DNA from: Octopus vulgaris
Lineage: Eukaryota
Length of the DNA stretch: 64,000 bases
Direction: 5' to 3'
Assembly: GCA_951406725.2 (NCBI GenBank)
Contig: OX597835.1
Coordinates: 27,218,001-27,282,000 of the forward strand
Positions 1,677 to 62,120 of this stretch are shown piece by piece. The notes under the pieces were generated by a model. The model saw only the letters and a program-made list of their open reading frames with translations. It was not told where the DNA came from and made no database searches. Position 1 is the stretch's first letter. Every line of letters starts with the position of its first letter. The translations under genes were made by a program, and so were the position numbers.

Positions 1677-2242
1677 GTTGACCTCGGCGGAATTTGAACT
1701 CAGAACGTAGCGGAAGACGAAATACCTATTTCTTTACTACCCACAAAGGGGATAAACACAGTGAGGACAAACAAGGACAGTCAAACGGATTAAGTCGATT
1801 ATATCGACCCAAGTGAGCAACTGGTACTAATTTAATCGTTCCCGAAAGGGATGAAAGGCAAAGTCGACCACGGCGGAATTTGAACGCAGAACGTAACGGC
1901 AGACGAAATATTTCTAAGCATTTCGCCCGGTGTGCTAACGTTTCTGCCAGCTCAGAAGCTTGAATTTTTTTAACAAAACAAAATATTATAACCTGAGATT
2001 TTTTGAATCGTAAATTCTGATTTTCACTACGCATGCGCGCGCGTGTGTGCCTATGTTATAAATGCTATATGTATTGTATTTCGTTCTCTCTCTCTCCCTC
2101 TCTCCCTCTCCCTCTCTGAGCGCATGAGGTGTATCTACCCCCTTTTTTTTATCTTCGCGGAATTCTAATCAGTGTTTTCCATTCTACCTCTTTCCTTGCA
2201 GATCCAGTTTCAGACACTAAAATCCTGAATCCAAAACTAAAA

Positions 2243-2351
2243 ATGCAGTCTTGGTCGGCAGCGATTCTCTTCCTATGCCTCACAGGAGTCTACCTTGTCC
2301 AAGCTCAGATTTCAGAAGCTACGGCAGACACTGAAGATTCCACGGATCATG
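2243..2351 (+). CDS. Coding exon 1 of a putative small secreted/GPI-anchored S/T-rich protein: MQSWSAAILFLCLTGVYLVQAQISEATADTEDSTDH
   Basis: Acceptor with CTAAT branch-like motif and pyrimidine tract (tttccttgcag, AG 2200-2201). ATG at 2243 in AAAATG context. Hydrophobic signal peptide ending VQA/Q. Phase-1 donor G|GTTGGT at 2352. Non-repetitive island. Confidence 0.72.
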
Positions 2352-2378
2352 GTTGGTAGTTTACTGTACCTACATACA

Positions 2379-2447
<69 letters not shown>

Positions 2448-3498
2448 ACACACAGACACGGGTTTGGCTTTACAAACTAGTTCCATATTTTTATCCATTT
2501 CAAGCGCTTTCCTTTTAATGTTGCTCTTGTTCTTACTCAGCTGGAATCAGCCCTGACGAAACCGTTCCAAATCCGTGACCATCTCGTCATATTCAGGTTT
2601 CTCTCCTTCCCCACTTCTCACTCTCTATCTTCTTTCTCTCTGATGGTAGTAGTGGTAGTGGTGGTGACGGTAGCGGTGGCAGCGACGTTGGTAGTGTTGG
2701 TGTAAGAATGATAAAAAAAAAAGAAGAAAAAGAAGTAATTGTAGTAGTAGTAGTAGTTAGATTCTTTGTTTCGCCAATCACGTCGCAATCCAGATTCGAT
2801 CTCCCTTCATTTCGTTTCGCGGCACTACTTTGGGGGAAGTTCCCCACCATCAACAACACCTTCTCCTTTGATATCAATGTACTTTTATATTCGGTTTGAA
2901 GTATAATTGGACAAAAAAAAAAAAATCGATCGATCGAACGAACGAACGAAACCTATTGGACTTTGTGTTTAATAACTAAACAAGATTTTAGAAATCGATA
3001 AATCTTATTTATCTTCACACGTTCTGTGACAATAACTTTAGAATTATATCGTTCGTTTCTTCGGGTTTAACTCAGAAACGAGATACCAAACTCAATGTTT
3101 GAAAAAAAAAAATAGACATTTTCAAAGATCTTTCACCCTGGGTCAATCGGACATTTTTCATCGTTTCTAGATAGAAAAATTGCGTCGAAAATAAAGTAAA
3201 GCGTTCCATAAAAACAAATTTCCTTCTCGGAGCTCATATCTATAATTTTCATCTATGTGTTATTCAACTGCGTTAGCAGACACGAAACAACGTGGAGGCG
3301 CAAGTGAAAGCCTATCAACAGGATTATATGGGGAATCGCTTACAATGCTATCACCATGGAAATCTTTGAACTTCTCTCCTTAGTATTGCGACTTGTGCGG
3401 AATTTCATTGACAATTTATCCGATATTAATGATTTATAACACACATACACACACATACGCAGAAACGCCCAAGTGCAAACCGTGTGTACGAATATGTT

Positions 3499-3539
<41 letters not shown>

Positions 3540-3543
<4 letters not shown>

Positions 3544-3833
3544 CGTGATCACCGTGACTGACCAGGCTATCAGATGTTGCAACACATCGCTGGTCACAAT
3601 GCGCTTCGCATTGTTTTGGCCTTCAAATGACGCCACCCCGCCGGCTAAGCAAGCAGGCCAACGGAAGAAAGAGAGAAAGTTGTAGCGAAAGAGTACAGCA
3701 AGGATCGCCACCACCCCTGCCGGAACCTCGTGGAACTTTAGGTGTTTTCGGTCAAGAAACAATCACAACGCCCGGTCTGGGGATCGAAACCGCGATCCTA
3801 CGACCGCTGCCCTAACCACTGGGCCATTGCGCG

Positions 3834-3835
<2 letters not shown>
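3540..3835 (-). mobile_element. tRNA-derived SINE sharing head and body with family 6 but with a different tail
   Basis: Minus-strand tggcccagtggttagggc...ggtttcgatcccc-agaccgggcg. Shares the acaactttctc block. Tail ends in cacggtgatcacggtgat. Confidence 0.75.
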
Positions 3836-3914
<79 letters not shown>

Positions 3915-4165
3915 CGTTGCTATTATGTTAAACTGTCGTATGTCCTAATTTGACCAAATGCGTTTTTTTCCATATTTATTTTTGCTTGCAATAGCCGGTC
4001 TTTTGGTCAAACTATCGTATCTCCAGCTGCTTCAGATGCCAAGATGTCAAAAATTGTCAAAATGTAGTACAACGGTCTTGCTATGGAATAGTTAAATTAT
4101 TTTTCCGTTTTCTAAAGAAAAAAAAGCATCGTTTTGGACTTACGATATTTTTGCATAATAACAAC

Positions 4166-4256
<91 letters not shown>

Positions 4257-4277
4257 GGATGGATGGATGGATGGATG

Positions 4278-4357
<80 letters not shown>

Positions 4358-4791
4358 TAGATGCTAGCGTAGCTGTGTGGTAAGAAGTTTGCTTCCCAAC
4401 TACATGGTTCCTGGTTCAGTCCCACTTCGTACCACCATGCGCAAGTGGCTTTTGTGAGACGGAAACTGAAAGAAGCCCGTCGTATATATGTTTATGAGTG
4501 TGTGCGTGTGTGTGTATGTATGTGTCTTTGCGTCTGTTTTAGACCCCACTACTGCTTAACAATCGATGCTGGTGTATTTACATCCCCGTAACTTAGGCGT
4601 TCAACAATAGTGAACGACGGAATTTGTAACAAGGCTTTACCAAAACAAAATAAACAAGTACTGGGATAGGCTTCGTTCGACCCAACTTCTCCAAGACGGT
4701 ACCAAAACATGGTCACAATCTAATGGCTAAAACAGGTAAAGAATAAAAGACGTATGCATGTATGTCTTTGAGTATGAATGTATGTATTTGG

Positions 4792-4826
<35 letters not shown>

Positions 4827-5747
4827 CTGTGCTTGTATGCGTGTATGTCTGTATATATGTGTATATGTATATATGCATGTTCGTGTCTCTGCCTGAGTGT
4901 GCGTATGTGCGTGCGTGCGTGTGTGTGTATTTGTGTGTGTGTGCGCTGGTTCAGCAAAGTCGAAAGAATTTGATTCACTTTACAACTACGAGATCGCAGG
5001 ATCGATCTTACTATAAGACATCTTGAACAAGTGCCAGGTTCCTTATCCTCTGCTCGATTTTTATCTTGTGAATGAAATTGCGGAGATGGAAACTATGAGG
5101 AAGCCCATCGAATGGTTTGTACCTGGCATTTAAAGGCTCGGACTTATTAGATACTGTATCATGCTGATTCTTGGTAAGAATGGAAGACTCGTTAAAGCGT
5201 TGGAAAATATACCTTGCGGTACTTTTTCTTACCCTTTACGCCCTGGGTTCAAATCCCGCTGAGTCGACTTCGCTTTCATCTTTTCTAGATCGATAAAATA
5301 ACTGTACTAGCCAAATGCTGGGGTTAATATGATCCACTGTTCCCATCTAGGAAAAGCAACAAACAAAAACAAAAGGATAATACAGGAGGAACAAATTTTG
5401 TATCAATTTAATGTATAAAAGGGAAGGGAAAGAGTCGCAACGTTTCGGACGCGACTTCTTCATCAGAAGAACGGTATAGAAGAAAAGAATAGGGAGAGGG
5501 TACTTGAAAGAAAAAAGATAAGCGTAAGATTAGGGTCCGATGGTAATGCAGTTCTGTGGGTGGAGATAAGAAAGGGGAGGGAGTCGGTGCATGTTTTCAC
5601 ATATAAGAATATATTCATGCTTTGGGGGAGTGTTGTATGTATGGTATGTATGGTTTTATATATGTGTGTATATATATGTATGTGTGTATATATATACATA
5701 TATAAATATATATTACATATATATTATATACATACATATATATTTTT

Positions 5748-5778
<31 letters not shown>

Positions 5779-6035
5779 GTGTATATATATATATATATAT
5801 ACATAAATGTCGAACAATTTCTTGACACAGCATTAATGGATAACGAATCTTTATTTGTGTATTAAGGCCACCATTGGTTTCATGTTAAGAAAATATCTTT
5901 ACATCTTAAAAAAATTTTCAAGCCAATCACATAGAGGAATGGTGTTCGTCTCCGTTTTGGATTAATACGGAGACGAACACCATTTCTCCATGTAATCGGC
6001 TTGAAAAACTGTATTAAGATATTTAATACACAAAT

Positions 6036-6095
<60 letters not shown>

Positions 6096-6916
6096 ATCTG
6101 TCTGTGTATGTCTGTGTCTGTGTTCGTCTGTCTGTGTGTGTCTGTGTCTGTGTGTATTTGTGGGTGTGTATATTGTGTGTGCGTATATTGGTATGTATGT
6201 ATATGTGTATGAACCTATGTGTATCTATATCTTGAGGGAGAGACATAAATCGTTAAAGTAACTAACTAAATGATTTTCGACATTTCGTAGCGTACCTTTA
6301 CTCTGAGTTCTAATCACGCTGAAGTCGATATTAACCTTTCAGGTTCGATAAAATATATACCAATATTTTATCGTGGATTCTCTATAGTCGATCATACCCA
6401 TGTCCAACGTTTGAGGTCTTGTATCGATATCAGAAATTGATATTGCGATTGAGAACGCAATTACGATTGAGCAGCAAACCAAATGACAGGCGGGGTTTCG
6501 TTGTTTTGTTGCTTTTGTTTTTGATTTGTTCTGTTTTTTTTTATTTGTTTTTTTTGTTTTTTTTTTTTTACATTATGTACTCATTTCGAATTCTGCAAAA
6601 TTTAGTTTTGCGTTTCATCCTTCTGGTGGGGTGGTCGATAATATTGATTAAACATACCCCCGCCTCCTCTTTAAAAAATGTCTGGAATTGTCCTGTCCCT
6701 ATGGTAGAAATCAATATTATAATTGAATCCATCGCTCCTGGAAAATTAGACAAACTTATCTGTGTCTGTGAGGCATGTGTGTGAGAAGGGAGATAGGATA
6801 GATAGACTAAGAGAGAGAGAGAGAGACAGACAGACAGAGACAGACAGACAGACAGACAGACAGAGGGAGAGGTTGGGAAGAATAGATGTAGGTAGATAGG
6901 TAGGTGGGTAGGTAGG

Positions 6917-6991
<75 letters not shown>

Positions 6992-7075
6992 GGAAAACCT
7001 GAGGTATTTTAATAGATAGACAGACAGGGAGACAGACAGACAGATAAATAGATAGATAGATAGATAGATAGATAT

Positions 7076-7144
<69 letters not shown>

Positions 7145-7230
7145 GAAGTGAGGTATTTTGATAAACAGACAGAGAGACAGACAGGAAGACAGGGAGACAG
7201 ACAGGGAGACAGGGAGACAGACAGGGAAAC

Positions 7231-7305
<75 letters not shown>

Positions 7306-7706
7306 GAAACCAACAGGCAAACATAAAAACAGAGAGACAGAGGAGAGAGAGAAGGCAGAAGATTAAATCAATACGGTGGTTTCATTTCGCAAGAACCAGC
7401 AGGCATGAAGCAGAGTTGGGTACGAGATGGATTTCATAACATAGTTACCTCCACACACGAACATGAGCGAACGAGAGAGCCTCGATAAAGTCACTCGACC
7501 GTCTAAAAATAGCAACATAATACATCTTCATTAAATCTCACACAGACACACGCGCGCGCAACCATTTCAAGGAAAATTGGTGAACGCGTTGTATAATATA
7601 TGTTAGAAGAGAAATGCCGGAGCACATGGTATATATATATATCTGAAAAAGTAATTGGTTGAATTCATTAAATACGTCTGAAGAAGAAAAAGAATATATA
7701 TATATA

Positions 7707-8120
7707 GGCGCAGGAGCGGCTGTGTGGTAAGTTGCTTGCTAACCAACCACATGGTTCCGGGTTCAGTCCCACTGCGTGGCATCTTGGGCAAGTGTCTTCT
7801 GCTATAGCCCCGGGCCGACCAATGCCTTGTGAGTGGATTTGGTAGACGGAAACTGAAAGAAGGCTGTCGTATATATGTATATATATGTGTGTGTGTGTTT
7901 GTGTGTCTGTGTTTGTCCCCCTAGCATTGCTTGACAACTGATGCTGGTGTGTTTACGTCCCCGTCACTTAGCGGTTCGGCAAAAAGAGAACGACAGAATA
8001 AGTACTGGGCTTACAAAGAATAAGTCCCGGGGTCGATTTGCTCGACTGGAGGCGGTGCTCCAGCATGGCCGCAGTCGGATGGCTGAAACAAGTAAAAGAT
8101 AAAAGATAAAGATAAAAGAT
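7707..8120 (+). mobile_element. tRNA-derived SINE family 2 with internal TA/TG microsatellite, full copy. Other copies near 4365, 8190, 8625, 16595+17935, 18455, 21875, 24340, 26995, 48575, 52543, 52948, 55758, 56315, 60365
   Basis: A-box-like ggctgtgtggt and B-box-like gggttcagtccc, body (c/t)cttgggcaagtgtc, tail gaaacaagtaaaaga. More than 12 copies in the window. Confidence 0.9.
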
Positions 8121-9158
8121 AACTGAACGCATGTAAGCCTGGAAAATAGGATCGGATACATTCTATCATAAATATTTGAAGAAAAAAAAACGGGTGTGGC
8201 TGTGTGGTAAGAGGTTTGCTTCCCAGCCACACGGTTCCGGGTTCAGTCCGACAGCGTGTCTTCCGCTGTAGCCTCGGGCCGCCCAAAGCCTTGTGAGCGG
8301 ATTTGGCAGATGGAAACTGAAAACAGTGTATGTGTGTGTATGTGTATATGTGTGCGTATATATATATATTTCTTTATTGCCAACAAGGGGCTAAACACAG
8401 AGGGGACAAACAAAGACAGACAAAGGGATTGAGTCGATTAAATCGACCCCAGTGCATAACTGGTACTTTATTTATCGACCCCGGAAGGATGAAAGGCAAA
8501 GTCGACCTCGGCGGAATTTGAACTCAGAACGTAGCGACAGACGAAATACTGCTGAGCATTTCGCCCGGCGTGCTAACGATTCTGCCAGCTCGCCGCCCTG
8601 TGTGTGTGTATATATATATCAATACGACAGGCTCCTTTTAGTTTCCGTCTAGCAAATTGGTTGACCCGAGATCATAGTAGAAGGTGCCACGCTGTGGGAC
8701 TGAACGCGGTACTATGTGGTTTGAGAAGCAGGCTCCTTAACTACACAGTCGCGCCAGGACGATCAGCTCAGGTCTGAAACATTTTCGATCGATGACCTTC
8801 TTTTCGATCAAAGCTGATGTTCATATATCGTAAATTATAGCTAGAATATATGTGCATGCATGCGTATATTTGTGTGTGTGTATGTGTGTGTGTGTGTGTG
8901 TGTGGAATGCATGCAAGATTGTATACATAAATGTATAGAGAGAGAGAGAAAGGAGGGGCAAGTTCGTGACTGTGGAAGATTTGGTGTAGACAAAGTTATG
9001 TCTCATTGATGAAGTCGCAATTGACGATGAAAGAACTCTGACAACCAACAGAATGACTGATCAAACGATTGGTCAAGCAATTAATTAGTTAATTGGTTAA
9101 TTAGTCGACTAATTGGCTAATAATAATAATAATAATAATAATAACAATAATAATAATA

Positions 9159-9205
<47 letters not shown>

Positions 9206-9262
9206 AATAATAACAACAACAACAATAATAATAATAATTGGTTAATTATTCGACTTATTGGC

Positions 9263-9304
<42 letters not shown>

Positions 9305-9398
9305 TGATGACGATGATGATGATGATGATGATGATGATAATAATAATAACAACAACAACAATAATAATAATAATTGGTTAATTATTCGAATTATTGGC

Positions 9399-9449
<51 letters not shown>

Positions 9450-9471
9450 CGATGATGATGATGATGATAGA

Positions 9472-9668
9472 TACCAGGAAGTATCTCTCATGGCTTCTAA
9501 TCTTCATTGATTGGAAGTGTTATCATGTACATTGTTTTGTCTTGGTATAAAAGATGGGCTGCAGCAAATATTCAGCTCAATACCACAGATTTGCTTGTCA
9601 GTTGTTTGACCTTAAATAGATGAGCATGTCTCTTAGTGGCTGGCTATATGTGCATCTTTGATCCTGAA
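9472..9668 (+). mobile_element. Diverged opposite-orientation fragment of the same (TAA)n-associated element
   Basis: Reverse complement of 23345-23540. Confidence 0.7.
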
Positions 9669-10576
9669 CTTGTTTAGTGGACAAGTAACATAGCCATACA
9701 GAGAAAACAAGGGTGTGTCATTCGGAGTTTTCTTTCCTCAGTCGAGTTCCAGATTATCTTTGCAATTTCGGCTGGTTAGTTTTCACTTCACTGTGTCCTT
9801 GTCCCTTTTGCTCGCCCCTTCTTAATTCTTATCTCTCTGCCTCTACTGCTCTCTCTTCTCTTCCCACGTGACCGGCGTTCGGCCAAGCCTGATCTTTCTT
9901 TCTTGGTCTGGCCGTTGTCCGTGCAACATCGATATTCCTCCCTGTGCCTGTGAAATTTTATATCCCTGCCGTAAGGCTTCATTTCCACACACGCTAGCTT
10001 AATTTAATTCGTCCTTAGTTGAAAGACACCTGTTGTTATGTCCTGTTATTATTTTTATTGTATTTGTGTAACATTGTCCGTTTTTTTTGCGTCCTTGTTT
10101 TTGTATACATTCACTGCTTTCTACCCAGCTCTTAGCTTAGTTTTTTTGTTTGGGGCTGGCCAGATTGGTGCAATCTCGAGTATAATCAGCCGAAATGGCG
10201 AAGATAATCTGGTACTCGACTGAGGAAAGAAAAGTTCGAATGACCTGTCCTTGTTTTCTTTGTATCGTCTATCTAGATGTTTTGTTGTACCATTTTGTAC
10301 AACAAAACATCTATAGAACATATATATATATAAATTAGAGAAAAACCACTATTATGTAATTCAAACAGTGATATACATAAAACATATCATACAGAAAAAG
10401 TAAAATATATTATAAAACATATATCTAGATCACAAAAAGTACATGATGATAAATAAACAGTATATAATAATGCTTTTTCTCTAATTTATATATATTATAT
10501 ATTTATATAGTTAAATTTGATTTAATACTAAATTGAATTTTTCCCTGTAAGTTAGGAGCTATACTCCCTAACATTA

Positions 10577-10649
<73 letters not shown>

Positions 10650-10650
<1 letters not shown>

Positions 10651-11100
10651 GAGTGAGCGAGCAGAGCATGCCATCAAAGTGACACTGGGGTAAAATATAC
10701 GAAGCCCAGTATACCCATCATGACTACCCGTCTGATTAGGGTACACCAGGCACATGCATCACAACCATATGTGCGCGACATGGTGATCTCATATCAAGAT
10801 AAACAGCACATGACCTTGCAGGTGGAGCCCAGTTAGAATTTTCTTCAGATCGAGTAACCCATCCCGCTCAAAAGGTCCCTGAATAAGGGTTGTTTAAGGA
10901 CGTTGAACGAAACACCCATGTTTCCAGAGGTGAATTATCCAAACCCCAAAGAATCCTTCTCAACACATGGCTATGATGCTCCCCCACTACTTCTGCTCGT
11001 AATCAGAGATGCACATATCGTCAGCCACTAAGGGACATGCTCAACTGGTTAAGGTCAAACAACTAACAAGCAAATCTGTGGTATTGAGCAGAATATTTGC

Positions 11101-11101
<1 letters not shown>
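10650..11101 (-). mobile_element. (TAA)n-embedded retroposon, truncated copy
   Basis: Matches 22995-23445, with TTA arrays on both sides. Confidence 0.85.
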
Positions 11102-11191
<90 letters not shown>

Positions 11192-11764
11192 GGTGTAATT
11201 TTCATAAAATATTCTAATCGAAGGAAAAGTGCCAAGTGCAAAGGGTGGTTAGCAGTTTTAAACTATCATCAGAATTTCATTAAATATTTCTCTCGTTTGG
11301 GATACGCAGAGATAGACAGACGGACGGACGGATGGATGGATGGATGGACGTACAGACGGGGAAGTTTCCAGAAGAAATCTGCTAACCTTCTTGCCATCGA
11401 AAAAGGGGGACAGAACAATAATAAAAGACCAGAGTACTGGCATTGATTAACGTGACAGACGCATCTGATATAAATAGTGGAACGGACAGGGAAAGTTGTT
11501 CGAAATACAAAAGAACTCGAAATGGTGATCGCAGAAAATGTCAATAATAATCTAAGGCCTTTGTGTTGCTCAAGCTTATCTCCTTTTATACGACTTATTA
11601 CTGACTTAAGTTGCTGTCTTAGAATATATCCAGCCTGTCACAGCGGGAAGTGGGTTTGGCGTTATTTATTTATTTATCGATATCAAACCTTTAAGGCAGA
11701 ATTGGCAGACGGGTGATGGAGAGATCGGGAAAGTTTGGCAATTTCAGAAAAAAAAGTTGCTTTG

Positions 11765-12230
11765 GATGTTGTTGTGATGGTGATGGTGGTGGTGGTGGTG
11801 GTGGTGGTGGTAGTGGTAGTGGTGGAGCTGGTACTGGTAGTGGTGGGGATGACGGTAGTAGTATTGGTGGTAGTGGTGGTGGTGATGGTTGTAGTAATGG
11901 TTGTTGTTGTGGTAGTGGTAGTAGTAGTAGTAGTGATGATGGCGGTAGTGGTGGTGGTGGTGGTGGTGGTGGTGGTGGTGTTCGTGGTGGTGGAGTTGGT
12001 ACTGGTAGTGGTGGTGATGACGGTAGTAGTATTGGTGGTTGTGGTGGTAGTGGTGGTGGAGTTGGTACTGGTAGTGGTGGTGATGACGGTAGTTGTATTG
12101 GTGTTGATGGTAGTGGTGGTGGTGATGGTTGTAGTAATAGTTGTAGTAATGGTTGTTGTGGTGGTGATGGTGGTAGTGGTGGTGGTTTGGTGGTGGTGGT
12201 GGTGGTGGGGATGGTTGCGGTTGTGGTGAA
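11765..12230. repeat. Compound GGT/GTA trinucleotide repeat with a higher-order unit
   Basis: ggtggag(c/t)tggtactggtagtggtgg(g/t)gatgacggtagt(a/t)gtattgg occurs three times. Confidence 0.9.
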
Positions 12231-12551
12231 CTAGGAGTCGGAAGAAATACTTATCTATTTGTTTACCTTGTTTGCTGTTGTTCAACTGGGACTTATTTTA
12301 TCGACCCCGAAAGGATGACAGGCAAAGCCAGTAATTTCGGGGATGGGTTAAGTTAAATTATATCGATCCCAGTATTCGACTGGTACTTACCTTATCGATC
12401 CCGACAGCTTGAAAGTCAAAGTCGACCTCGGCAGACTTTGAAATACTTCAAATGGCTTCAAGAATTTTTTTTAAAAATCCAAAATTGTAGACTGTTATTT
12501 CAGGAAACATTAGCTGCCATTTCTAGCTAGTTGAGAAACTAAGTTGATAGA

Positions 12552-12607
<56 letters not shown>

Positions 12608-12911
12608 AAGACAGACAGACAGACAGACAGAAAGACAGACAGCTAGACAGACAGACAGACAGATATTCATCTACGTCTCTACATGGCATACGAAACTTGT
12701 TTATAAATACAGACTTCAGTAATTAATTAAAATAATTAACCATCAGTCGGGTCGTTTTATTTCAGCCACTATTAAAATGTTATTTATTATTTTCTTTTCA
12801 TAATTGTTTTTAACGGTTGTCTTTCTTTTTTTTTCTTTTTTTTTTACTCTTTTATTTTGTCTCACCATCCATCTCTCTAACTCTCTCTCTCACTTTCTTT
12901 AATTTATTCAG

Positions 12912-13141
12912 ATATAACCGAAAAATCGATCACAGCGGCCAACAAATCCGAAATACTAACAACAAGCCCAAAACTGGAAACCGGTGTGAAAGCTGAACCG
13001 GAATCAAGGCCTGATAATGGGACAAACACCCAGACAGCTGGGGTTGAAACCGTACACCTCAGCACCACTGTTGTGACTGCCACCACCATCACTGCCTTAA
13101 CTGTCATTTCAGCCATTACAATTTCCGGCCGGTTTTATTAA
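12912..13141 (+). CDS. Terminal coding exon of the same gene: (D)ITEKSITAANKSEILTTSPKLETGVKAEPESRPDNGTNTQTAGVETVHLSTTVVTATTITALTVISAITISGRFY*
   Basis: Long pyrimidine tract, CTAAC at 12877-12881, ttcag acceptor (AG 12910-12911). Phase matches exon 1 (G+AT=Asp). Open to TAA at 13139-13141. Sequons NKS and NGT; hydrophobic C-terminus. Confidence 0.68.
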
Positions 13142-13232
13142 CAAATTCATTATGTACAAGTATCATATTACTAAGCTTTTATTACGATTTTATTATTGAA
13201 CATGTATTATTAAACATCTTTTAATATTATTA

Positions 13233-13287
<55 letters not shown>

Positions 13288-14210: not shown

Positions 14211-15481
14211 TTATGTCGTCAAATATGAAATTTGTAGAAAATAAAAAAGGTTGGTAATGTTTTATAAATACAAGGAAGAGTTTTATTCATCAAAGTATGC
14301 GCCTATATTGTCAATACACTTTTGCCATTTCAGCAATAGCTTGTCCAGCCCGGTACTGTAAAAGCCTGGCAATTTAGGGGTCAATAAAATCTTGGAAGGC
14401 CTGTTTTACAGCATCGTCGGGATTCAATTTTTTCCTATCAGAAAGTTATCCAAATTCTGGAAGAAGTGGTAGTCAGTGGGGGCAAGATCAGGTGAGTATG
14501 GTGGATGATGGAGAACTTCCAACTCCAACTCTTGTGGTTTCGGCAATGTCATTTTGCGTATGCGGTCTGGCGTTGTCTTACAATAAAATAGGAGTGGATC
14601 TATTGACTAATCTAGGCTAATTTTTGTAAGTTTCTGCATCATTTGGTCCAGTTGGCTGCAGTATACTTCGGCCGTGATTGATGAGCCAGGTTTAATGAAA
14701 TCATAATGGATCACACCTACACCAAACCACCAAACACACACCATCAGCTTCTTTTCATGAATTTTGCTTTTTGGACTGTGTTTTGGTGGCTCGTCTTTGT
14801 CCAACCATTGTGCTGAACGTTTACAGTTATTGTATTGGATCCATTTATCATTACATGTTACAATTCGATTCAAAAATGATTCATTTTTGTGACGAGAAAG
14901 TAGCATAATGCAGGCTTCCAAACATTGCTGTTTCTGATTTTCATTGAGTTCATGTGGAACCCATTTATCCAATTTTGTCACTTTTCCGATTTGAACTAAG
15001 TGAGTCAATATCATTTGCTTGCTAACACCAAACAACAATGATAATTGACGGGCACTTTGAGATGGATCTGACACGACGGTAGCTTTCAGTTTGTCATTAT
15101 CCACCTTCGTTTCTGGTCGACTGCGTTGCTCGATTGTGAGATCAAGGTTACCAGAACGAAATTTTGCAAACAAATTTGATACTATCTGCTGTGTAATAAC
15201 ATTAGAATGAAATACTCCAATAATATTCTGAGCCGTCTGTGACGCTGTATTTCCAAGAAAATAACTTATATTTCAGAACTCTACGAACTTCCGACTTAAC
15301 CATCTCTAAACAAAAATAGCAAAAACGATTTATAAAATACAATATGAATTAGAATAAAGAAATAGATGTGTCAGCTTTCTAACAAAAAATAAAGATTGTC
15401 AAAATATAATAATGGCGCAAAATGAGCCGCTGTCAAAGTTTACCATATACCTTACTACAAATTTCATACTTGACGACCTAA
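14211..15481 (-). mobile_element. Full-length decayed mariner (DD34D) transposon, family A
   Basis: About 30-bp TIRs (ttatgtcgtcaaatatgaaatttgtag / ctacaaatttcatacttgacgacctaa) in TA context. Transposase motifs WVPHEL, VTCNDKW, *DNARPH and HPPYSPDLAPTDYH, with stops and frameshifts. Confidence 0.93.
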
Positions 15482-16748: not shown

Positions 16749-17929
16749 TTGGGTCATCCCATAAATAATGCGTTTTTTATACTTCGTTTCATTTTTCAAA
16801 ATTAAGGTAAAGTACTTTTTTAATGTAAAATATACTCTCCTTCATTTTCTATAATGCTCTTCCATCTATCTGGTACACTTGCAAGACCTCTCTTCCAAAA
16901 TTCACTTGTCCGTGACGAAAAATACTCCTCCATTACTGTTCTGACCTCGTCTACAGAATTCATATTTTTTCCGTCCAAATGATTTTGAAGATTGCGGAAT
17001 AAATGATAATCAGACGGAGCAATGTCCGGCGAATATGGTGGGTGGAGCATCATTTCCCACCCATCCTCCCTATGTGTGGTCGAGCATTATCCTGATGGAA
17101 GAACACTTTTCGTCTTGAAACCAAAAATGGTCGTTTTTCTTATAGCGCTGACTTAAGCCGCTCAAGCTGCTCTCAGTAGATCTCCTTTGTTATCGTTTGC
17201 TTTGGGTTGAAAAGTTCAAAGTGGACTAAACTTTTCATATCCCACCAAACAGATAGCAATACCTTACGTGGGTGAAGACGTTCTTTAGCTTGGGGTGCCG
17301 GTGTTTCTCCTTTCCCTATCCACTGTCTTCGGCGCTTGACACTTTTACAGCAAACCCATTTCTTGTCACCAGTCACCATTCGGTCCAAAAACGGTTCATT
17401 CGTAAGATGTGACAGCAAATGAGAGCACACATTCACCCTCTGTGCGCGATTACACTCGGAAAGTTTGAGGGACCCAATTTGCTGACTTTTCCGATGGCAC
17501 GCAGGTGTCGATGAATGGTTAAATGACCAAATCCAAGCTTCTCTGCTAGTTCCTCAACAGTTACGATGAGATTTTGTTCCAGCAGGGTTTGCAGGTCGTC
17601 CTTGTCAAGCTCTACAGATCTTTCGGGACGAGGCTTGTGCTTATTGTCCGATCCCCATATACTGCATTAATATTCCTCACATTTTCCGTTGCGTTGTTGC
17701 CTTTATTGAACTCATAAAGCAAAATACGCCGAATATGCTCCTTCGTCACTTCCATTATAACTTTGAAAATAACTGATAAAATCGAACTGCACTCTTCAAA
17801 ACTTGCACTAAGAATAAGGAAAAATTTCCTGCTTTTATATAGCAAGTCGATGCAGGTAGTTTAACTCGTTCCCCTTTGACTTTTAGTTCATGCAATTGAA
17901 ACAAACGCATTATTTATGGGATGACCCAA
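16749..17929 (-). mobile_element. Full-length decayed mariner (DD34D) transposon, family B, nested in a SINE
   Basis: TIRs ttgggtcatcccataaataatgcgttt / aaacgcattatttatgggatgacccaa with TA on both sides. Motifs HIRRILLYEF, VTGDKKW, HQDNARPH and HPPYSPDIAPSDYHLF. Confidence 0.95.
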
Positions 17930-22994: not shown

Positions 22995-24338
<1,344 letters not shown>

Positions 24339-28990: not shown

Positions 28991-29161
28991 TGCGCGCGCA
29001 CGTGAAGTGTGTGTATGTTTGCAGCTATGTACATATGTTTTCTACTATGTACGTAGATATATATACGTATGACTGTATATATGTATGCATCAATGCATAT
29101 ACGTATTTTGTACATATACGCACATAATATATATATACATGCATGTGTATATGTGTATGTG

Positions 29162-29694
29162 AGGTATAAGGACTTGCTGAAGGCTTCCTTAAGAGATGCT
29201 TGCATCTCTCCTGACACATGGGAGGGCATAGCTATTGATCGTAGCAGGTGGAGAAGGATTGTGCACGAGGGGACAGCTACTTTCGAGAAATCTCGAGTTG
29301 CGCATGAGAGAGTAAGGAGGGATGTCAGGAAGGGCATCGCTGTTACACTTCCAGATGGGAAGGGTCTTCCTATGATGCTGACATGCAGGGTCTGTGCTAG
29401 ACCCTGCCTCAGTAAAGCTGGACTCAAGAGTCATCTTCGTAGTCATAAAGCGAGACAGATGAGTGACAACCTGGCCACTGGTGGTGGTGTTACGCATCAT
29501 ACTAATCATATCTGCCATCATGTAGAAGAGAGTGTAATTCAGCAGGAGTACTTAAACGACATGCAAAGGTACATGAAGCTCAGTTACAACTACAGCTGGC
29601 TATTGCCGGTAAAGGTTTTAGCTGCCAATTCTGTACAAGACATTGTAGATCTTTGGCTGGGCTAAAAAGTCACATTCGATCACAGCACCAGTAA
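29162..29694 (+). mobile_element. RTE-clade LINE ORF2 C-terminus with three C2H2-type zinc fingers
   Basis: RYKDLLKASL...WEGIAIDRSRWRRIV (RTE C-terminal motif), then CRVCARPCLSKAGLKSHLRSH, then across a 1-nt frameshift CH(x)CRRECNSAGVLKRHAKVH and CQFCTRHCRSLAGLKSHIRSQH. Confidence 0.8.
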
Positions 29695-37959: not shown

Positions 37960-38695
37960 TTATTTTTTTTTTTTCTTCTTTCAAATTTGCTTCCATTTCT
38001 TGCCGAGTGTCTTCCCGACTCCTAGGGCAAAGAAACTCATAGTATACATTGGTAGGCCATTAAACCAAACTCAATAGTTCGTTCATTTTTTTTTTTTTTT
38101 AATTAAAATACATGAGCAGCAACAGTTCTCACATCGACAATGCTCTTCTCAATACGTGTGATGTACCAGTTAAGACAATCTTTTGCACTTCTTGCAGGGA
38201 TGGTAAGCCAGGGATCATTCTCACATAATTTTCGGTTCCCTTCTTGATCATTCCTAGTGCTCCTACGATCACTGGTATTGTAACCGCCTTGAGATGCCAC
38301 ATTTTCTCAATTTCAATGAGTAGGTCTTTATATTTTCTGAGCTTGTCAAACTCTTTCGCTGAGATATTATGATCACAGGGGATGCTCATGTCGATCAATA
38401 AGCAAACTTTATTGTTTTGGTCTTTCACAACAATATCTGGTTTATTGGCCTTGATGGTTCGGTCTGTATGTACTGGAAAGTCCCACAGAATGGTTACATT
38501 TTCTCCTTCAGTTACAGCCTCAGGGTGGTGATTATACCACTTGTCGGCAGTTTTGATATTGTAATGCCGACTTATTAGCCAGTGGAGATATTGGCCAACT
38601 CTGTCATGTCTTAATTTATACTCCACTGGTGCTAAGACTTTACATCCAGAGATTAGGTGGTCCACTGTTTCAATCATGTCGTTGCAGAATCGGCA
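37960..38695 (-). mobile_element. 5'-truncated R4/Dong-like LINE with an uninterrupted C-terminal ORF
   Basis: CRFCNDMIETVDHLISGC knuckle, RHDRV, WDFPVHTDRTIKANKPDIVV, LIDMSIP, KLRKYKDL and VGALG. No stop from 38695 to 38129. TAA repeats on both sides. Confidence 0.92.
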
Positions 38696-46664: not shown

Positions 46665-47180
46665 CTAGCAGTATCGCCCGGCGTTGCTCGGGTTTGTAAA
46701 GGAAATAACTATATAAGCATTTTTAGAGAGTTACTTCCCTTATAGATGCCAATTCGGGCTTTCTTAGCCATTTCTGTTTTGGTGTCTTCAAGCCATGAAG
46801 TCGTTGTTCTAAAAGAACGCTGGTCTCCTTGACAACGCATTACGACGTTGATTTCCTGAAACTCCCTTCCCCACAGCTTCACGAGGGAGGGAAGAAGGGG
46901 AGAAGCAAACACAGGTGCAGGTGTTTGAGCGTGGACGCCAACTCCGCCGCCATCGACACACGAAAAATTATGCATTAAAATGGAATAAAAAATGATGTTA
47001 AATTATTTTTAAAATCGTAGACTCATCGTAGACGCGCGCTAATAGCCAGACGGGCTTGATATTAATCACGACTATAAGATACCCGAACTTGGTTAAACTG
47101 CACCGCAAAATGTGGGAGTAGTTAGGAATCTAAATCGAAGGGGACAGACACTCACACAACTACAGTTTTATATATATAGA
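46665..47180 (-). mobile_element. Non-autonomous Helitron-like element, copy A
   Basis: On minus: A|TC start, 3' hairpin cccg-agcaacgc-cggg and CTAG|T end. No TSD. Confidence 0.85.
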
Positions 47181-47488: not shown

Positions 47489-47994
47489 TCTATATATATA
47501 AAACTCTAGTTGTGTGAGTGTCTGTCCCCTTCGATTTAGATTCCTAACTCCTCCCACATTTTGCGGTGCAGTTTAACCAAATTCGGGTATCTTATAGTCG
47601 TGATTCATATCGAGCCCGTCTGACTATTAGCGCGCGTCAACGATGAGTCTACGATTTTAAAAATAATTTAACATCATTTTTTATTCCATTTTAATGCATA
47701 AAATGCATCGTATGTCGATGGCGGCGGAGTTGGCGTCCACGCTCACAGCTGCACCTGTTTGCTTCTCCCCCTTCCCTCCCTCGTGAAGCTGTGGGGAAGG
47801 GAGTGTAAAGAAATCAACGTCGTAATGCGTTGTGAAGGAAACCAGCGTTCTTTTAGAACAACGACTTCATGGCTTGAAGACACCAAAACAAAAATGGCTA
47901 AGAAAGCCCGAATTTATAAGGGAAGTAACTCTCTAAAAATGCTTATATAGTTATTTCCCTTACAAACCCGAGCAACGCCGGGCGATACTGCTAG
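47489..47994 (+). mobile_element. Non-autonomous Helitron-like element, copy B
   Basis: A|TCTATATATATAAAA start and cccgagcaacgccgggcgatactgCTAG|T end. Confidence 0.87.
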
Positions 47995-47998
47995 TATA

Positions 47999-48510
47999 TC
48001 TATATATATAAAACTGTAGTTGTGTGAGCGTCTGTCCCCTTCGATTTAGATTCCTAACTCCTCCCACATTTTGCGGTGCAGTTTAACCAAATTCGGGTAT
48101 CTTATAGTCGTGATTCATATCGAGCCCGTCTGAGTATTAGCGCGCGTCTACGATGAGTCTACGATTTTAAAAATAATTTAACATCATTTTTTATTCCATT
48201 TTAATGCATAATTTTTCGTGTGTCGATGGCGGCGGAGTTGGCGTCCATGGTCACACCTGCACCTGTTTGCTTCTCCCCCTTTTTCCCTCCCTCGTGAAGC
48301 TGTGGGGAAGGGAGTTTCAGGAAATCAACGTCGTAATGCGTTGTCAAGGAGACCAGCGTTCTTTTAGAACAACGACTTCATGGCTTGAAGACACCAAAAC
48401 AGAAATGGCTAAGAAAGCCCGAATTGGCATCTATAAGGGAAGTAACTCTCTAAAAATGCTTATATAGTTATTTCCCTTACAAACCCGAGCAACGCCGGGC
48501 GATACTGCTA

Positions 48511-55458: not shown

Positions 55459-55681
55459 TTATGGTAGGGAAGAATTGCTTATCACTAAATTGGTACCTTC
55501 AATTTCTACCAACTCATACACCCATTTACGATTGCAACGGCACTCTGTGCCACATTTTTCGGAGCCACACTTGCGGCAAGGAAAATGACAACCGGGACAG
55601 TCCTCATCCAAGCAGTCGCAGACGTCTTTGCTGTTATCAAGAAGCCGCCCTGCTTCATCATACATCTGGTTCTTTTTCACA
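55459..55681 (-). CDS. ARL14EP: ARL14 effector protein, terminal exon with ARF7EP C-terminal Cys-rich domain (YDEAGRLL...CDCLDEDCPGCHFPCRKCGSEKCGTECRCNRKWVYELVEIEG)
   Basis: Recognisable CDCL-x3-CxGC-x3-CxxCxSxKCGxECRCxRKWxY signature. Acceptor cttttcag. Phase compatible with the 61740 donor (AA+T=Asn). Stop codon ends at 55459. Confidence 0.93.
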
Positions 55682-57127
55682 CTGAAAAGAAAGGAAAAAA
55701 AGGAAAAAAAAAAAGTGAAATGAATAAAAATTAAAAACAGAAAATAAAATTAAATTAGGCATGGCTGTGTGGTAAGAAGCTTGCTTCCCAACCACATGGT
55801 TCTAGGTTCAATCCCACTGCAGAGCACCTTGGGCAAATATTTTTCTCTATAGCCTCAGGTCAACGAAAAGCCATGTGAGTGGATTTGATTTGGTACAAAT
55901 TCCGCCAAGGTCAACTTTGACTTTCATCCTTTCGGGGTCGATGTAATCGACTTAATCCATTTGTCTGTCCCCTCTATGTTTAGCCCCTTGTGGGCAATAA
56001 AGAAATAAGATGGAAACTGAAAGACACCTGCAGTATATAGTGTATGCACGTGTGTGTGTATGTGTGTGTGTCTGCATGAGTACATATGCATATGTGTGTG
56101 TGTGTGTGTGTGTCCCACCACCACTTGACAGTCGGTGTTGGTGTGAAGCACTGAGCTCAATTCATTCATTCAACTAAGAAGTTCAAGGCGGTGCCCCAGC
56201 ATGGCCACAAGTAAAAGACACAAACTGACATCAGTGTCATCAGCCTCTCCTTAATGGCCCCTTTTCTCCCAGGCTTTGCTTGGCTCAAATGGAATTTGCT
56301 GGGACAGATTTTAGATTCTTTTATTCTTTTACTTGTTTCAGTCATTTGACTGCAGCCATGCTGGAGCACTGTCTTTAGGCGAACAAATCAGCCGCAGCAC
56401 TCATTCTTTGTAAGCCTAGTACTTATTCTCTCGGTCTCTGTTGCCGAACCGCTAAGTTACAGGGACGTAAACACACCAACATAGGTTGTCAAGCGTTGGT
56501 GGAGAAACAAGCACAGACATACAAATACACACATATACATACATACACTATATATACATATATCATCATCATCATCATTTAGCATCCGTTTTCCATGCTA
56601 GCATGGGTTGGACGGTTCAACTGGGGTCTGTGAAGCTGGAAGGCTTCGTCAGGCCCAGTCAGATCTGGCAGTGTTTCTACGGCTGGATGCCCTTCCTAAC
56701 GCCAACCACTCCGTGAGTGTAGTGAGTGTTTTTTACGTGCCACCTGCACAGGTGCCAGACAGAGCTGGCAAACGGCCACGAACGGATGGTGCTTTTACGT
56801 GTCACCGGCACGGGGCCAGGCGATGCTGGCACACATACATACATATATATATACATATATATACATACATACATATATATACACATACATACATACATAC
56901 ATACATACACGAGGGGTGTATGAAAAGTCTAAAAATCAAAACATGGTACAAGACTTCTTTGACCAAATCCACAAGATTATGGTAGAAAACACTTGTCCTG
57001 GGAGCCACACAGTGGTTGAGCCCAAAACTATGTGGTTAGGAAGCAAAACTCCTTAAGCACAGTCATGCCTGCATCAATCTGTACTACATTTATATGAATT
57101 TGGTACTGCTGTTAAAAAGCTCCAGGG

Positions 57128-57695
57128 GTGATGTTTCACATGGCACAGGTGATTTTCAAGTGGAAAAAGTATGGGTGCTTTTTTACGTGACACCAGCACA
57201 GCAGGTGCTTTTTACGTGGCACCAGCACAGGCGTTTTCTACATGGCACCAGCACAGGTTCTTTCTACATGGAATCTGCACAGGTGCTTTTTACATGGCAC
57301 CAGAACAGGTGCTTTTCACATGGCACCAGAACAGGTGCTTTTCGCATGGCACCGGAACAGGTGCTTTTCGCATGGCACCGGAACAGGTGCTTTTCGCATG
57401 GCACCGGAACAGGTGCTTTTCGCATGGCACCGGAACAGGTGCTTTTCGCATGGCACCGGAACAGGTGCTTTTCGCATGGCACCGGAACAGGTGCTTTTCG
57501 CATGGCACCGGAACAGGTGCTTTTCGCATGGCACCGGAACAGGTGCTTTTCGCATGGCACCGGAACAGGTGCTTTTCACATGGCACCGGAACAGGTGCTT
57601 TTCACATGGCACCAGCACAGGTGCTTTTCACATGGCACCAGCACAGGTGATTTTTATGTGACACCTGCATGGGTGCTTTTTACAAGGCACCAGTA
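57128..57695. repeat. 26-bp minisatellite (ggcaccggaacaggtgcttttcgcat), about 20 units
   Basis: Homogeneous centre at 57330-57590 with diverged edges. Confidence 0.95.
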
Positions 57696-57879
57696 CCCGC
57701 AAGCTTGCAAAACAAAGACCACTCGGCTGAGAGGGGGAATGAAACCGAGAGATTAAAATATGACAGCAGTAGCCCTCTTGCTATCGAGGTGGTACTCAGC
57801 CAGTACATATGGATGGGTGGAGGTACACTTGCACTCAGTGATTCAGAAAAGAAAAATGTATGGCAGAGCTACTAGGAAA

Positions 57880-61632: not shown

Positions 61633-61739
61633 TTCTCTATTATACCATAAGAGAACCAGAAATAAACGCCACCATTGAACTTTCAATAATTAATTAAAAG
61701 TGAAACAAGTATGAAATGATAACGAGAGCAAATGCTTAC

Positions 61740-61861
61740 TTCTCTCTGTATATTCTGCGATTCATCTTGCGCATTTCTCTCGCACTCCGTTCAGGATCAA
61801 AATCTTCCATAAACTTACCAGGATTTGCAAAAGAGAGCATTTTTAGTTGTTTACTAACACT
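61740..61861 (-). CDS. ARL14EP: ARL14 effector protein, internal exon SVSKQLKMLSFANPGKFMEDFDPERSAREMRKMNRRIYRE
   Basis: Minus-strand acceptor cttttgcag and donor GTAAG. 122 nt, ends in phase 2. The LxFxNPG...F.PE...RE.R motif resembles ARL14EP upstream of its Cys-rich domain. Upstream exons were not identified in the window. Confidence 0.85.
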
Positions 61862-62120
61862 CTGCAAAAGAAAGAAAGAAAAAGAAGAAATTGAGAAATA
61901 AATAGAGAGACACAAAGATGGATTTCGCATTGGTTCTGATGAAAAAAAAAACTATTTGCTACACCAACTCCTTGTACTAGAATGGTATAACTGGCTGAGT
62001 AGCCCACAGAAGATAGTAATTGCAATATAGCATCAAGACAGACTCAACATGACACTGTATTTAATAAAACAGGATCTTTGAATTACAGATACAGTCTATC
62101 TCAAAAACATACATATACAG

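What the first reader, a model, noticed from the sequence alone, without database searches (positions are those of the whole stretch)
2202..13141. Hidden orphan gene: 112-aa signal-peptide, S/T-rich, probably GPI-anchored surface protein
Seen: two non-repetitive islands 10.5 kb apart, each with a branch-like motif, pyrimidine tract and AG, splice in matching phase 1 (CAT G|gttggt...ttcag|AT ATA). The product has a signal peptide (cleavage VQA/Q, so mature N-terminal Gln), an acidic/Thr-rich stalk without Cys, two N-glycan sequons (NKS, NGT), small residues (TAG) and a V/T/A/I-rich tail. The second exon's sense frame is absent from the ORF track. Known: this architecture is that of tiny GPI-linked glycopeptides such as CD24/CD52. 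Inference: a lineage-specific cell-surface mini-mucin; I recognise no homolog, and extra internal exons cannot be excluded.
Basis: partly seen in the sequence, partly recalled or inferred. Interest (0 to 1): 0.72.

Follow-up and report, generated by a model that had tools for sequence, protein, structure and literature searches.

The report
Small octopus surface glycoprotein gene
This is a real, spliced, single-copy octopus gene, already listed in public databases as a hypothetical protein and with one relative found (in the argonaut), whose 112-residue product is predicted to be a small sugar-coated protein likely tethered to the cell surface by a lipid anchor, resembling human CD24 in layout without shown kinship.

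Summary
The gene is real. The 2351/12912 junction appears in assembled contigs of 6 of 7 runs laid, from six studies. The seventh, a large DNA-like run, stays collinear with the genome. No extra coding exon lies between them in these contigs. A third, non-coding exon lies 93 kb upstream, outside the window. The gene is not hidden: the identical 112-aa protein is in NCBI as an Octopus vulgaris hypothetical protein (CAI9738983.1). It is not a strict orphan: Argonauta hians has a 62%-identical, 112-aa ortholog. No paralog, Pfam family or structure match was found. Both proteins keep the signal-like N-terminus, Ala/Gln cleavage site, two N-glycan sequons, acidic Ser/Thr-rich Cys-free core and marginally hydrophobic tail. 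The core is better conserved (43/57) than signal plus tail (26/54). A GPI anchor is the likeliest reading (about 0.6), at A79/G80 or S87 rather than T78. No predictor or experiment confirms it, and a type-I membrane or secreted protein remains possible. It is CD24-like in layout only. Verdict: an ordinary lineage-restricted surface protein, modest interest.

The parts
2165..2201 (+). Branch-like CTAAT, pyrimidine tract and acceptor AG (2200-2201) ending the 93,102-nt first intron. Its donor lies outside the window at G000:C22:27127100 (L005:1533).
   Evidence: Sequence; loose end before this exon in X1 and X17 maps uniquely to C22:27127068-27127092; intron length
2202..2351 (+). Exon 2 of 3 (first coding exon): 41 nt of 5' UTR, then codons 1-36 and the first base of codon 37
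   Evidence: single copy
2243..2305 (+). Predicted signal peptide, residues 1-21; predicted cleavage after Ala21, leaving N-terminal Gln22
   Evidence: Hydropathy peak at residues 6-16, KD 2.5; Ala-Gln kept in the ortholog; in-frame stop 60 nt upstream in the inferred leader; no signal-peptide predictor run
2352..12911 (+). Second intron, 10,560 nt, GT...AG, phase 1; microsatellites and dispersed repeat-like elements
   Evidence: Joined form in 6 of 7 runs laid
12877..12911 (+). Branch-like CTAAC, pyrimidine tract and acceptor AG
   Evidence: Sequence; contig break point
12912..13141 (+). Coding part of exon 3: residues 37-112 and stop TAA
   Evidence: single copy; identical to P0001
12941..12949 (+). 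N-glycosylation sequon N47-K-S, identical in the ortholog
13016..13024 (+). N-glycosylation sequon N72-G-T (N-E-T in the ortholog)
13037..13045 (+). Preferred candidate GPI attachment region A79-G80-V81 (G-G-A in the ortholog), followed by a polar 7-residue spacer
   Evidence: Omega scan against the PredGPI layout; inferred
13061..13069 (+). Alternative candidate attachment site S87-T-T (S-S-T in the ortholog)
   Evidence: inferred
13067..13123 (+). Uncharged, marginally hydrophobic T/V/I/A stretch, residues 89-107, followed by S-G-R-F-Y
   Evidence: KD 19-mer 1.79 (ortholog 2.02)
13142..13250 (+). 3' UTR, minimum extent; ATTAAA at 13209-13214 is a possible poly(A) signal; true end unknown
   Evidence: Contigs cover to 13220 and run 30-32 letters further; motif

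Best explanation
A three-exon, single-copy octopod gene is spliced across 93-kb and 10.6-kb introns to encode a 112-residue protein that is predicted to enter the ER by a cleaved signal peptide, likely has its weakly hydrophobic tail replaced by a GPI lipid anchor, and would sit on the cell surface as a short acidic glycopeptide that likely serves as a ligand in cell recognition. Shown: exon structure, splicing, single copy, ortholog, conserved layout. Inferred: cleavage after Ala21 (Gln22 possibly cyclised), N-glycans at N47 and N72, O-glycans on the 17 Ser/Thr of the core, GPI transfer at A79/G80 (or S87), and a mature chain of about 58 residues (6.1 kDa, net charge -7). Most speculative: a specific receptor or lectin partner, suggested by the core being the most conserved region.
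For: Junctions in contigs. The Argonauta ortholog has the same length and keeps the Ala/Gln site, both sequons, the charge (-7/-6) and the Ser/Thr count (17/17). With omega at A79 (G80 in Argonauta), a polar linker precedes it, omega+3..+9 is polar (mean KD -0.13/-1.21), and the best hydrophobic 19-mer starts exactly at omega+10 in both species, matching the four-region layout in PMC2571997 (passages). The tail is marginal for a stable membrane helix: an unweighted sum on a recalled Hessa scale gives +0.93/+0.48 kcal/mol. At most 3-4 residues would remain cytosolic. The genome has a multi-exon Gaa1 transamidase-subunit gene (7 of 9 matches over the cut-off, all at one C3 locus). Core identity is 43/57 versus 26/54 for signal plus tail, Fisher p=0.0036. 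CD24 is among the top Atlas feature hits for both proteins (0.85, 0.86; leads only).
Against: No GPI or signal predictor could be run. A79 is 33/32 residues from the end, beyond the 'about 20-30' of PMC2571997, and Ala is not in that paper's experimentally seen omega set (C, D, G, N, S). G80 is in the set but has Glu at omega+2. S87 is at the usual distance (25/24) but its 'spacer' is hydrophobic (KD +1.8/+2.1). The tail has one Leu and eight Thr in 22 residues, whereas PMC2571997 lists C-terminal Leu as a discriminating feature. A conserved Arg just after the hydrophobic stretch also suits a type-I helix. Core versus tail alone is not significant (p=0.06), and there is only one ortholog pair. 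Keeping both sequons is expected about 30% of the time at this identity. There is no tissue, localisation or partner data.
Confidence: 0.6

Rival explanations
1. Type-I single-pass membrane glycoprotein: residues 89-107 stay in the membrane as a helix with a 3-5 residue cytosolic stub, and the whole 22-88 segment is a short glycosylated stalk.
For: A 19-residue uncharged stretch with KD 1.79/2.02, followed by an Arg kept in both species. The AlphaFold model has a C-terminal helix at 79-110, but only at mean pLDDT 54. The C1orf54 clusters rank above CD24 in the Atlas (0.88/0.87; leads only).
Against: Insertion estimate is positive (+0.93/+0.48; recalled scale, no position terms). There is almost no cytosolic tail, and the ortholog has Asp before the Arg. 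The segment is rich in Thr and Ser.
Confidence: 0.2
2. Fully secreted glycoprotein (mucus, matrix or glandular): the Thr-rich C-terminal segment is too weak to anchor, passes into the lumen and is O-glycosylated or self-associates.
For: The tail is Leu-poor and Thr/Ser-rich (10 of 22 residues in O. vulgaris), with mean KD of the last 20 residues only 1.15/1.24. No omega site fits every rule.
Against: An uncharged hydrophobic block at the extreme C-terminus is kept in both species by like-for-like substitutions, with a polar spacer and small residues at the expected spacing before it.
Confidence: 0.15
3. Precursor of a peptide hormone or neuropeptide: the conserved, Gln-initiated core is cut into signalling peptides.
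For: Signal peptide, N-terminal Gln and a core more conserved than its flanks; single Lys/Arg residues are conserved.
Against: No dibasic site in either protein. The C-terminal Gly-Arg of O. vulgaris is Asp-Arg in Argonauta, so no shared amidation signal. The conserved sequons and hydrophobic tail are unexplained under this reading.
Confidence: 0.04
4. Not a protein-coding gene: a spliced non-coding RNA with a chance ORF, or an assembly artefact.
For: No run is on record as RNA. No protein-level evidence.
Against: Two canonical GT-AG junctions are seen in contigs. The 112-codon frame is kept at 62% identity with mostly conservative changes in another octopod family.
Confidence: 0.01

Closest known systems
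Its own database records: CAI9738983.1 / UniRef100_A0AA36FM64 (Octopus vulgaris, hypothetical; P0001) and GAB1607811.1 (Argonauta hians, hypothetical; P0002)
   Same: P0001 is letter for letter the spliced product. P0002 is 62% identical, 112 aa, same layout.
   Different: Neither carries a function. No paper in the searched library names either accession.
CD24 (PMC9990587, passages) and CD52 (recalled)
   Same: Short, heavily N/O-glycosylatable peptide between a signal peptide and a GPI-type tail; CD24 is in the top four Atlas feature hits for both proteins.
   Different: No Pfam CD24 match at E up to 10. The predicted mature chain is about 58-66 aa versus about 30 for CD24. The tail is Thr/Val/Ile/Ala-rich. 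The anchor and partners are untested.
C1orf54 (PF15465 DUF4634) and LLCFC1 (PF15838) clusters
   Same: Small proteins of similar size that score 0.83-0.88 by language-model features.
   Different: Below the tool's 0.9 lead level, at most 160 of 256 features shared, no Pfam or HMMER match; chordate clusters.
Squid Thy-1-like and Ly-6-like glycoproteins (Williams et al. 1988; title seen in a reference list only; the rest recalled)
   Same: Small cephalopod cell-surface glycoproteins; GPI anchoring is recalled, not read here.
   Different: Those folds need cysteines; this mature region has none in either species.
obimac0019980, marker of immature optic-lobe neurons in O. bimaculoides (PMC9815951, passages and Methods S1 supplement)
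   Same: Cephalopod-restricted; signal peptide plus a predicted transmembrane segment; largely disordered with two helices.
   Different: Probably a different, longer protein: its reported ortholog E-value (about 3e-88) is stronger than this protein's best possible self-hit (2e-82; about 1e-77 at proteome size).

Membership tests
GPI-anchored proteins (layout per PMC2571997) | N-terminal signal peptide | tested here: met
   By hydropathy and inspection only (KD 11-mer 2.5/3.0; small residues before a conserved Ala/Gln); no predictor available
GPI-anchored proteins (layout per PMC2571997) | Small residues at omega-1..omega+2, about 20-30 residues from the C-terminus | tested here: inconclusive
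   A79/G80 fit the residues partly but lie 31-33 from the end; S87 lies 24-25 from the end; T78 is not conserved
GPI-anchored proteins (layout per PMC2571997) | Spacer at omega+3..+9, then hydrophobic tail from omega+10 to the end | tested here: inconclusive
   Met for omega=A79 (spacer KD -0.13/-1.21, tail 1.25/1.40). For S87 the spacer is as hydrophobic as a tail (1.8/2.11)
GPI-anchored proteins (layout per PMC2571997) | Host has GPI transamidase | tested here: met
   One subunit tested: Gaa1 (PF04114) exons over the cut-off on C3
GPI-anchored proteins (layout per PMC2571997) | Covalent GPI on the mature C-terminus / PI-PLC release | not testable with these tools
   Needs an experiment
CD24 / CD52 | Sequence homology to the family | tested here: not met
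   0 Pfam families at E up to 10 for P0001; only a sub-cut-off Pro-rich hit for P0002; 1 hit (the ortholog) among 1.84 billion representatives
CD24 / CD52 | Very short mature peptide (about 30 aa for CD24, PMC9990587) | tested here: not met
   Predicted 58 aa (omega 79) to 66 aa (omega 87)
CD24 / CD52 | N- and O-glycosylation sites on the mature peptide | tested here: met
   Sites only: two sequons and 17 Ser/Thr of 58 residues in both species; occupancy not tested
CD24 / CD52 | Binding to Siglec, selectin or L1-type partners | not testable with these tools
   No partner known
Ly-6/uPAR or Thy-1-like Ig proteins | Disulfide-bonded folded domain | tested here: not met
   0 Cys in the mature region of both proteins; low-confidence model, pLDDT 42-49 over residues 41-90
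Type-I single-pass membrane proteins | Stable transmembrane helix with a cytosolic tail | tested here: inconclusive
   19 uncharged residues with marginal insertion estimate; 3-5 residue tail with a conserved Arg
Neuropeptide / peptide-hormone precursors | Dibasic cleavage sites or a conserved amidation Gly | tested here: not met
   No dibasic site in either protein; Gly109 is Asp in the ortholog

The most novel reading that the evidence does not exclude
Octopods independently evolved a CD24/CD52 counterpart: a lineage-born, GPI-anchored glycopeptide whose conserved acidic core, and not only its sugars, is read by a dedicated receptor as a self or cell-identity signal in immunity or neural wiring.
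Probability: 0.15. Interest if true: 0.6.

Novelty: new member of a known kind. Interest (0 to 1): 0.3.

Why it matters
If GPI-anchored, it would be a small, antibody-accessible, enzyme-releasable surface marker for octopus cells, and a test case for convergence on the CD24/CD52 design outside vertebrates. The conserved core suggests a binding partner worth finding. As it stands it is an already annotated hypothetical gene of a familiar layout. Other notes from this scan report further predicted GPI-type surface proteins of no known family in the same genome (unchecked AI notes), so a specialist would not be very surprised.

Tried and rejected
No RNA holder listed: reported only as such. The RNA nature of the runs is inferred from the spliced contigs. 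Contig depth was not used as an expression level, and no tissue labels were available.

Extra coding exons between 2351 and 12912: not seen, since 30 letters on each side join directly. Rare isoforms would be dropped by contigs.

N-terminal extension from the upstream exon: rejected because of an in-frame stop 60 nt before the ATG.

Alternative 5' exon suggested by X5's contig starting 7 letters before the exon: could equally be an A-run length variant; not resolved.

Retrocopy or repeat: one locus per exon.

Local paralogs: tblastn over 184 kb found only the two exons; the next best E-value was 0.18 (first 40 rows printed).

Longer fused relatives: 0 of 5854 candidates scored (weak evidence). 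Proteins under 41 aa were not searched.

PDB by sequence: 3 hits at E 4.2-6.7, treated as noise. NCBIfam SosA at 17.7 bits versus a cut-off of 60: noise. Pfam Pro-rich at 15.1 versus 30: noise.

AlphaFold on a 2-sequence alignment gave pLDDT 54 and pTM 0.22, so no fold search was run. Atlas structure rows rest on an equally poor model and were ignored.

Identity with obimac0019980: rejected on E-value grounds, not by direct comparison.

Region identities used a signal boundary off by one; the corrected values are.

dN/dS could not be computed: there was no ortholog DNA, and the laid runs showed no differences in the exons.

Literature: accession search 0 papers; one conserved 7-residue motif 0 papers; topical searches listed nothing on this gene. 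Galian 2012 was not held (title seen only). The larger supplements of PMC9815951 and PMC9712504 could not be read and may list this gene as a cell-type marker under another identifier. The three readable PMC9712504 supplement files were listed but not read.
Full report
Observation. Joining 2243-2351 to 12912-13141 gives a 112-codon frame with a phase-1 GT-AG intron of 10,560 nt. Branch-like motifs and pyrimidine tracts precede both exons. The rest of the interval is microsatellite and dispersed-repeat-like sequence. Each island has a single match in the 2.8-Gb genome by DNA and by protein or two-sequence profile. Those searches score only the best candidates, so distant paralogs could be missed. 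A permissive tblastn over 184 kb around the gene found nothing else better than E 0.18.

Splicing. The run search listed 24 runs, 20 of which hold the second exon; none is on record as RNA. I laid 7 distinct runs of the 24. On the second island, contigs of X1, X5, X13 and X20 (4 of 4) stop at 12911 and continue with the last 30 letters of the first island. On the first island, X1, X7 and X17 continue past 2351 with the first 30 letters of the second. X16, a large run read to about 76%, is collinear with the genome across both exon edges. So 6 of 7 runs, from six coded studies and three coded organism labels, carry the joined form. The assembly holds no intron-less copy. I infer spliced mRNA. 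No extra exon lies between the two in these contigs, though contigs drop rare forms.

A third exon. X1 and X17 also have a loose end before the first coding exon. It maps once, to G000:C22:27127068-27127092, directly before a GT donor at 27127100, giving a 93,102-nt first intron. If the unseen part of the longest contig (X13) is collinear, it reaches L005:1180, 37 nt after a TATAAAA at L005:1143. The inferred leader has two short upstream ORFs in one frame and an in-frame stop 60 nt before the ATG, so the N-terminus is complete. The exon is unique apart from a CT-rich middle. The 3' end is unknown: contigs run 30-32 letters past 13220, where a (TTA)n array begins.

Known records. The exact protein is in NCBI and UniRef as an Octopus vulgaris hypothetical protein, CAI9738983.1, in a cluster of one. 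Its record lists a contig as long as G000:C22, so it is probably not independent evidence, but it shows the gene is not hidden. phmmer over 1.84 billion representatives gave one hit, P0002, E 8e-36, 62% identical, 112 aa: GAB1607811.1 of Argonauta hians, a different family within Incirrata. The profile of the two found only themselves among 169 candidates of 61-196 aa and none among 5854 longer ones. No other octopus, squid or cuttlefish protein appeared. That may reflect missing annotation of a small gene; I could not search those genomes directly. Pfam, NCBIfam and PDB sequence searches gave only noise.

Anatomy. Both proteins have a hydrophobic N-terminus ending in small-X-Ala then Gln; a Cys-free, aromatic-free core with 17 Ser/Thr and 12 Asp/Glu in 58 residues; both sequons; and an uncharged T/S/V/I/A stretch ending just before a conserved Arg-Phe. 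Identity is 8/21 in the signal, 43/57 in residues 22-78 and 18/33 in 79-112. Core versus the rest gives p=0.0036, core versus tail alone p=0.06, from one pair only. Sequon retention alone is not significant (about 0.30). AlphaFold gives a low-confidence model (pLDDT 54, pTM 0.22) with terminal helices and an unstructured middle.

Mechanism. Against the four-region GPI-signal layout in PMC2571997 (passages), omega at A79 (G80 in Argonauta) gives a polar linker, a polar spacer and a hydrophobic block starting at omega+10 in both species. But it lies 32-33 residues from the end, and Ala is outside that paper's experimentally seen set. G80 has Glu at omega+2. S87 has the usual distance but a hydrophobic spacer. 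The tail is marginal for a stable helix on a recalled Hessa scale without position terms (+0.93/+0.48). The link between marginal hydrophobicity and GPI addition rests on a title seen in a reference list and on recall. A Gaa1 gene is present. I put a GPI anchor at 0.6, a type-I helix at 0.2, a secreted protein at 0.15, a peptide precursor at 0.04 and non-coding at 0.01. The most likely working picture is a roughly 58-residue, acidic, glycan-bearing peptide on the outer leaflet, acting as a recognition or adhesion ligand. The ligand role is inferred only from the conserved core.

Comparison. It likely works like CD24 (about 30-aa mature, N/O-glycosylated, GPI-anchored; PMC9990587 passages) but fails membership on homology and size. 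Atlas feature scores for CD24, C1orf54 and LLCFC1 are 0.83-0.88 for the whole proteins, under the tool's lead threshold; the C-terminal half alone gives 0.76-0.81. It lacks the cysteines of Ly-6 or Thy-1-like proteins. The cephalopod-specific immature-neuron marker obimac0019980 has a similar description (PMC9815951, Methods S1 read), but its reported E-value exceeds this protein's self-hit, so it is probably another gene. Searches by accession, by motif and by topic found no paper on this gene in the held library. Large supplements of the two octopus single-cell papers (PMC9815951; PMC9712504, passages only) could not be read and might list it. Earlier scan notes had nothing at this place or for this sequence but list other predicted GPI-type surface proteins in this genome.

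Verdict. Observation confirmed, interpretation partly supported. This is a real, annotated but uncharacterised octopod gene of a known architectural kind. Interest 0.3.

Noticed in passing
window 55459-55749 (-) and 61736-61951 (-): Two exons of an ARL14EP-like gene (PF14949 ARF7EP_C; 95.7 and 27.1 bits, cut-off 27), converging on the gene studied here; a useful synteny anchor.
   Followed up: partly
window 14607-15272 (-), also 16820-17860 (-): Mariner-type transposase fragments just downstream (Transposase_1 and HTH_48 hits for the first; the others by eye).
   Followed up: partly
window 23727-24239 (-), 38129-38695 (-), 29057-29665 (+): Open frames that look by eye like 3' ends of non-LTR retrotransposons; no Pfam hit for the first two, a sub-cut-off zinc-finger hit for the third.
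   Followed up: partly
L019:1423-1876 (G000:C22:27209423-27209876), inside the 93-kb first intron: A roughly 320-nt single-copy island open on both strands (151 codons +, 127 codons -), between a repeat-like element and a CT-rich tract. No Pfam or PDB match. It could be an exon of a nested gene; unexplained.
   Followed up: partly
L005:1143-1532 (G000:C22:27126710-27127099): TATAAAA followed by a 5' exon of at least about 350 nt (inferred) with two short upstream ORFs (18 and 6 codons, same frame); possible translational control.
   Followed up: partly
window 57040-57756: An array with a period of about 26 nt, seen as repeating frames.
   Followed up: no
window 47702-47950, 48177-48467 and 46709-47002 (-): Three near-identical copies of a few-hundred-nt element, seen as matching translations.
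   Followed up: no
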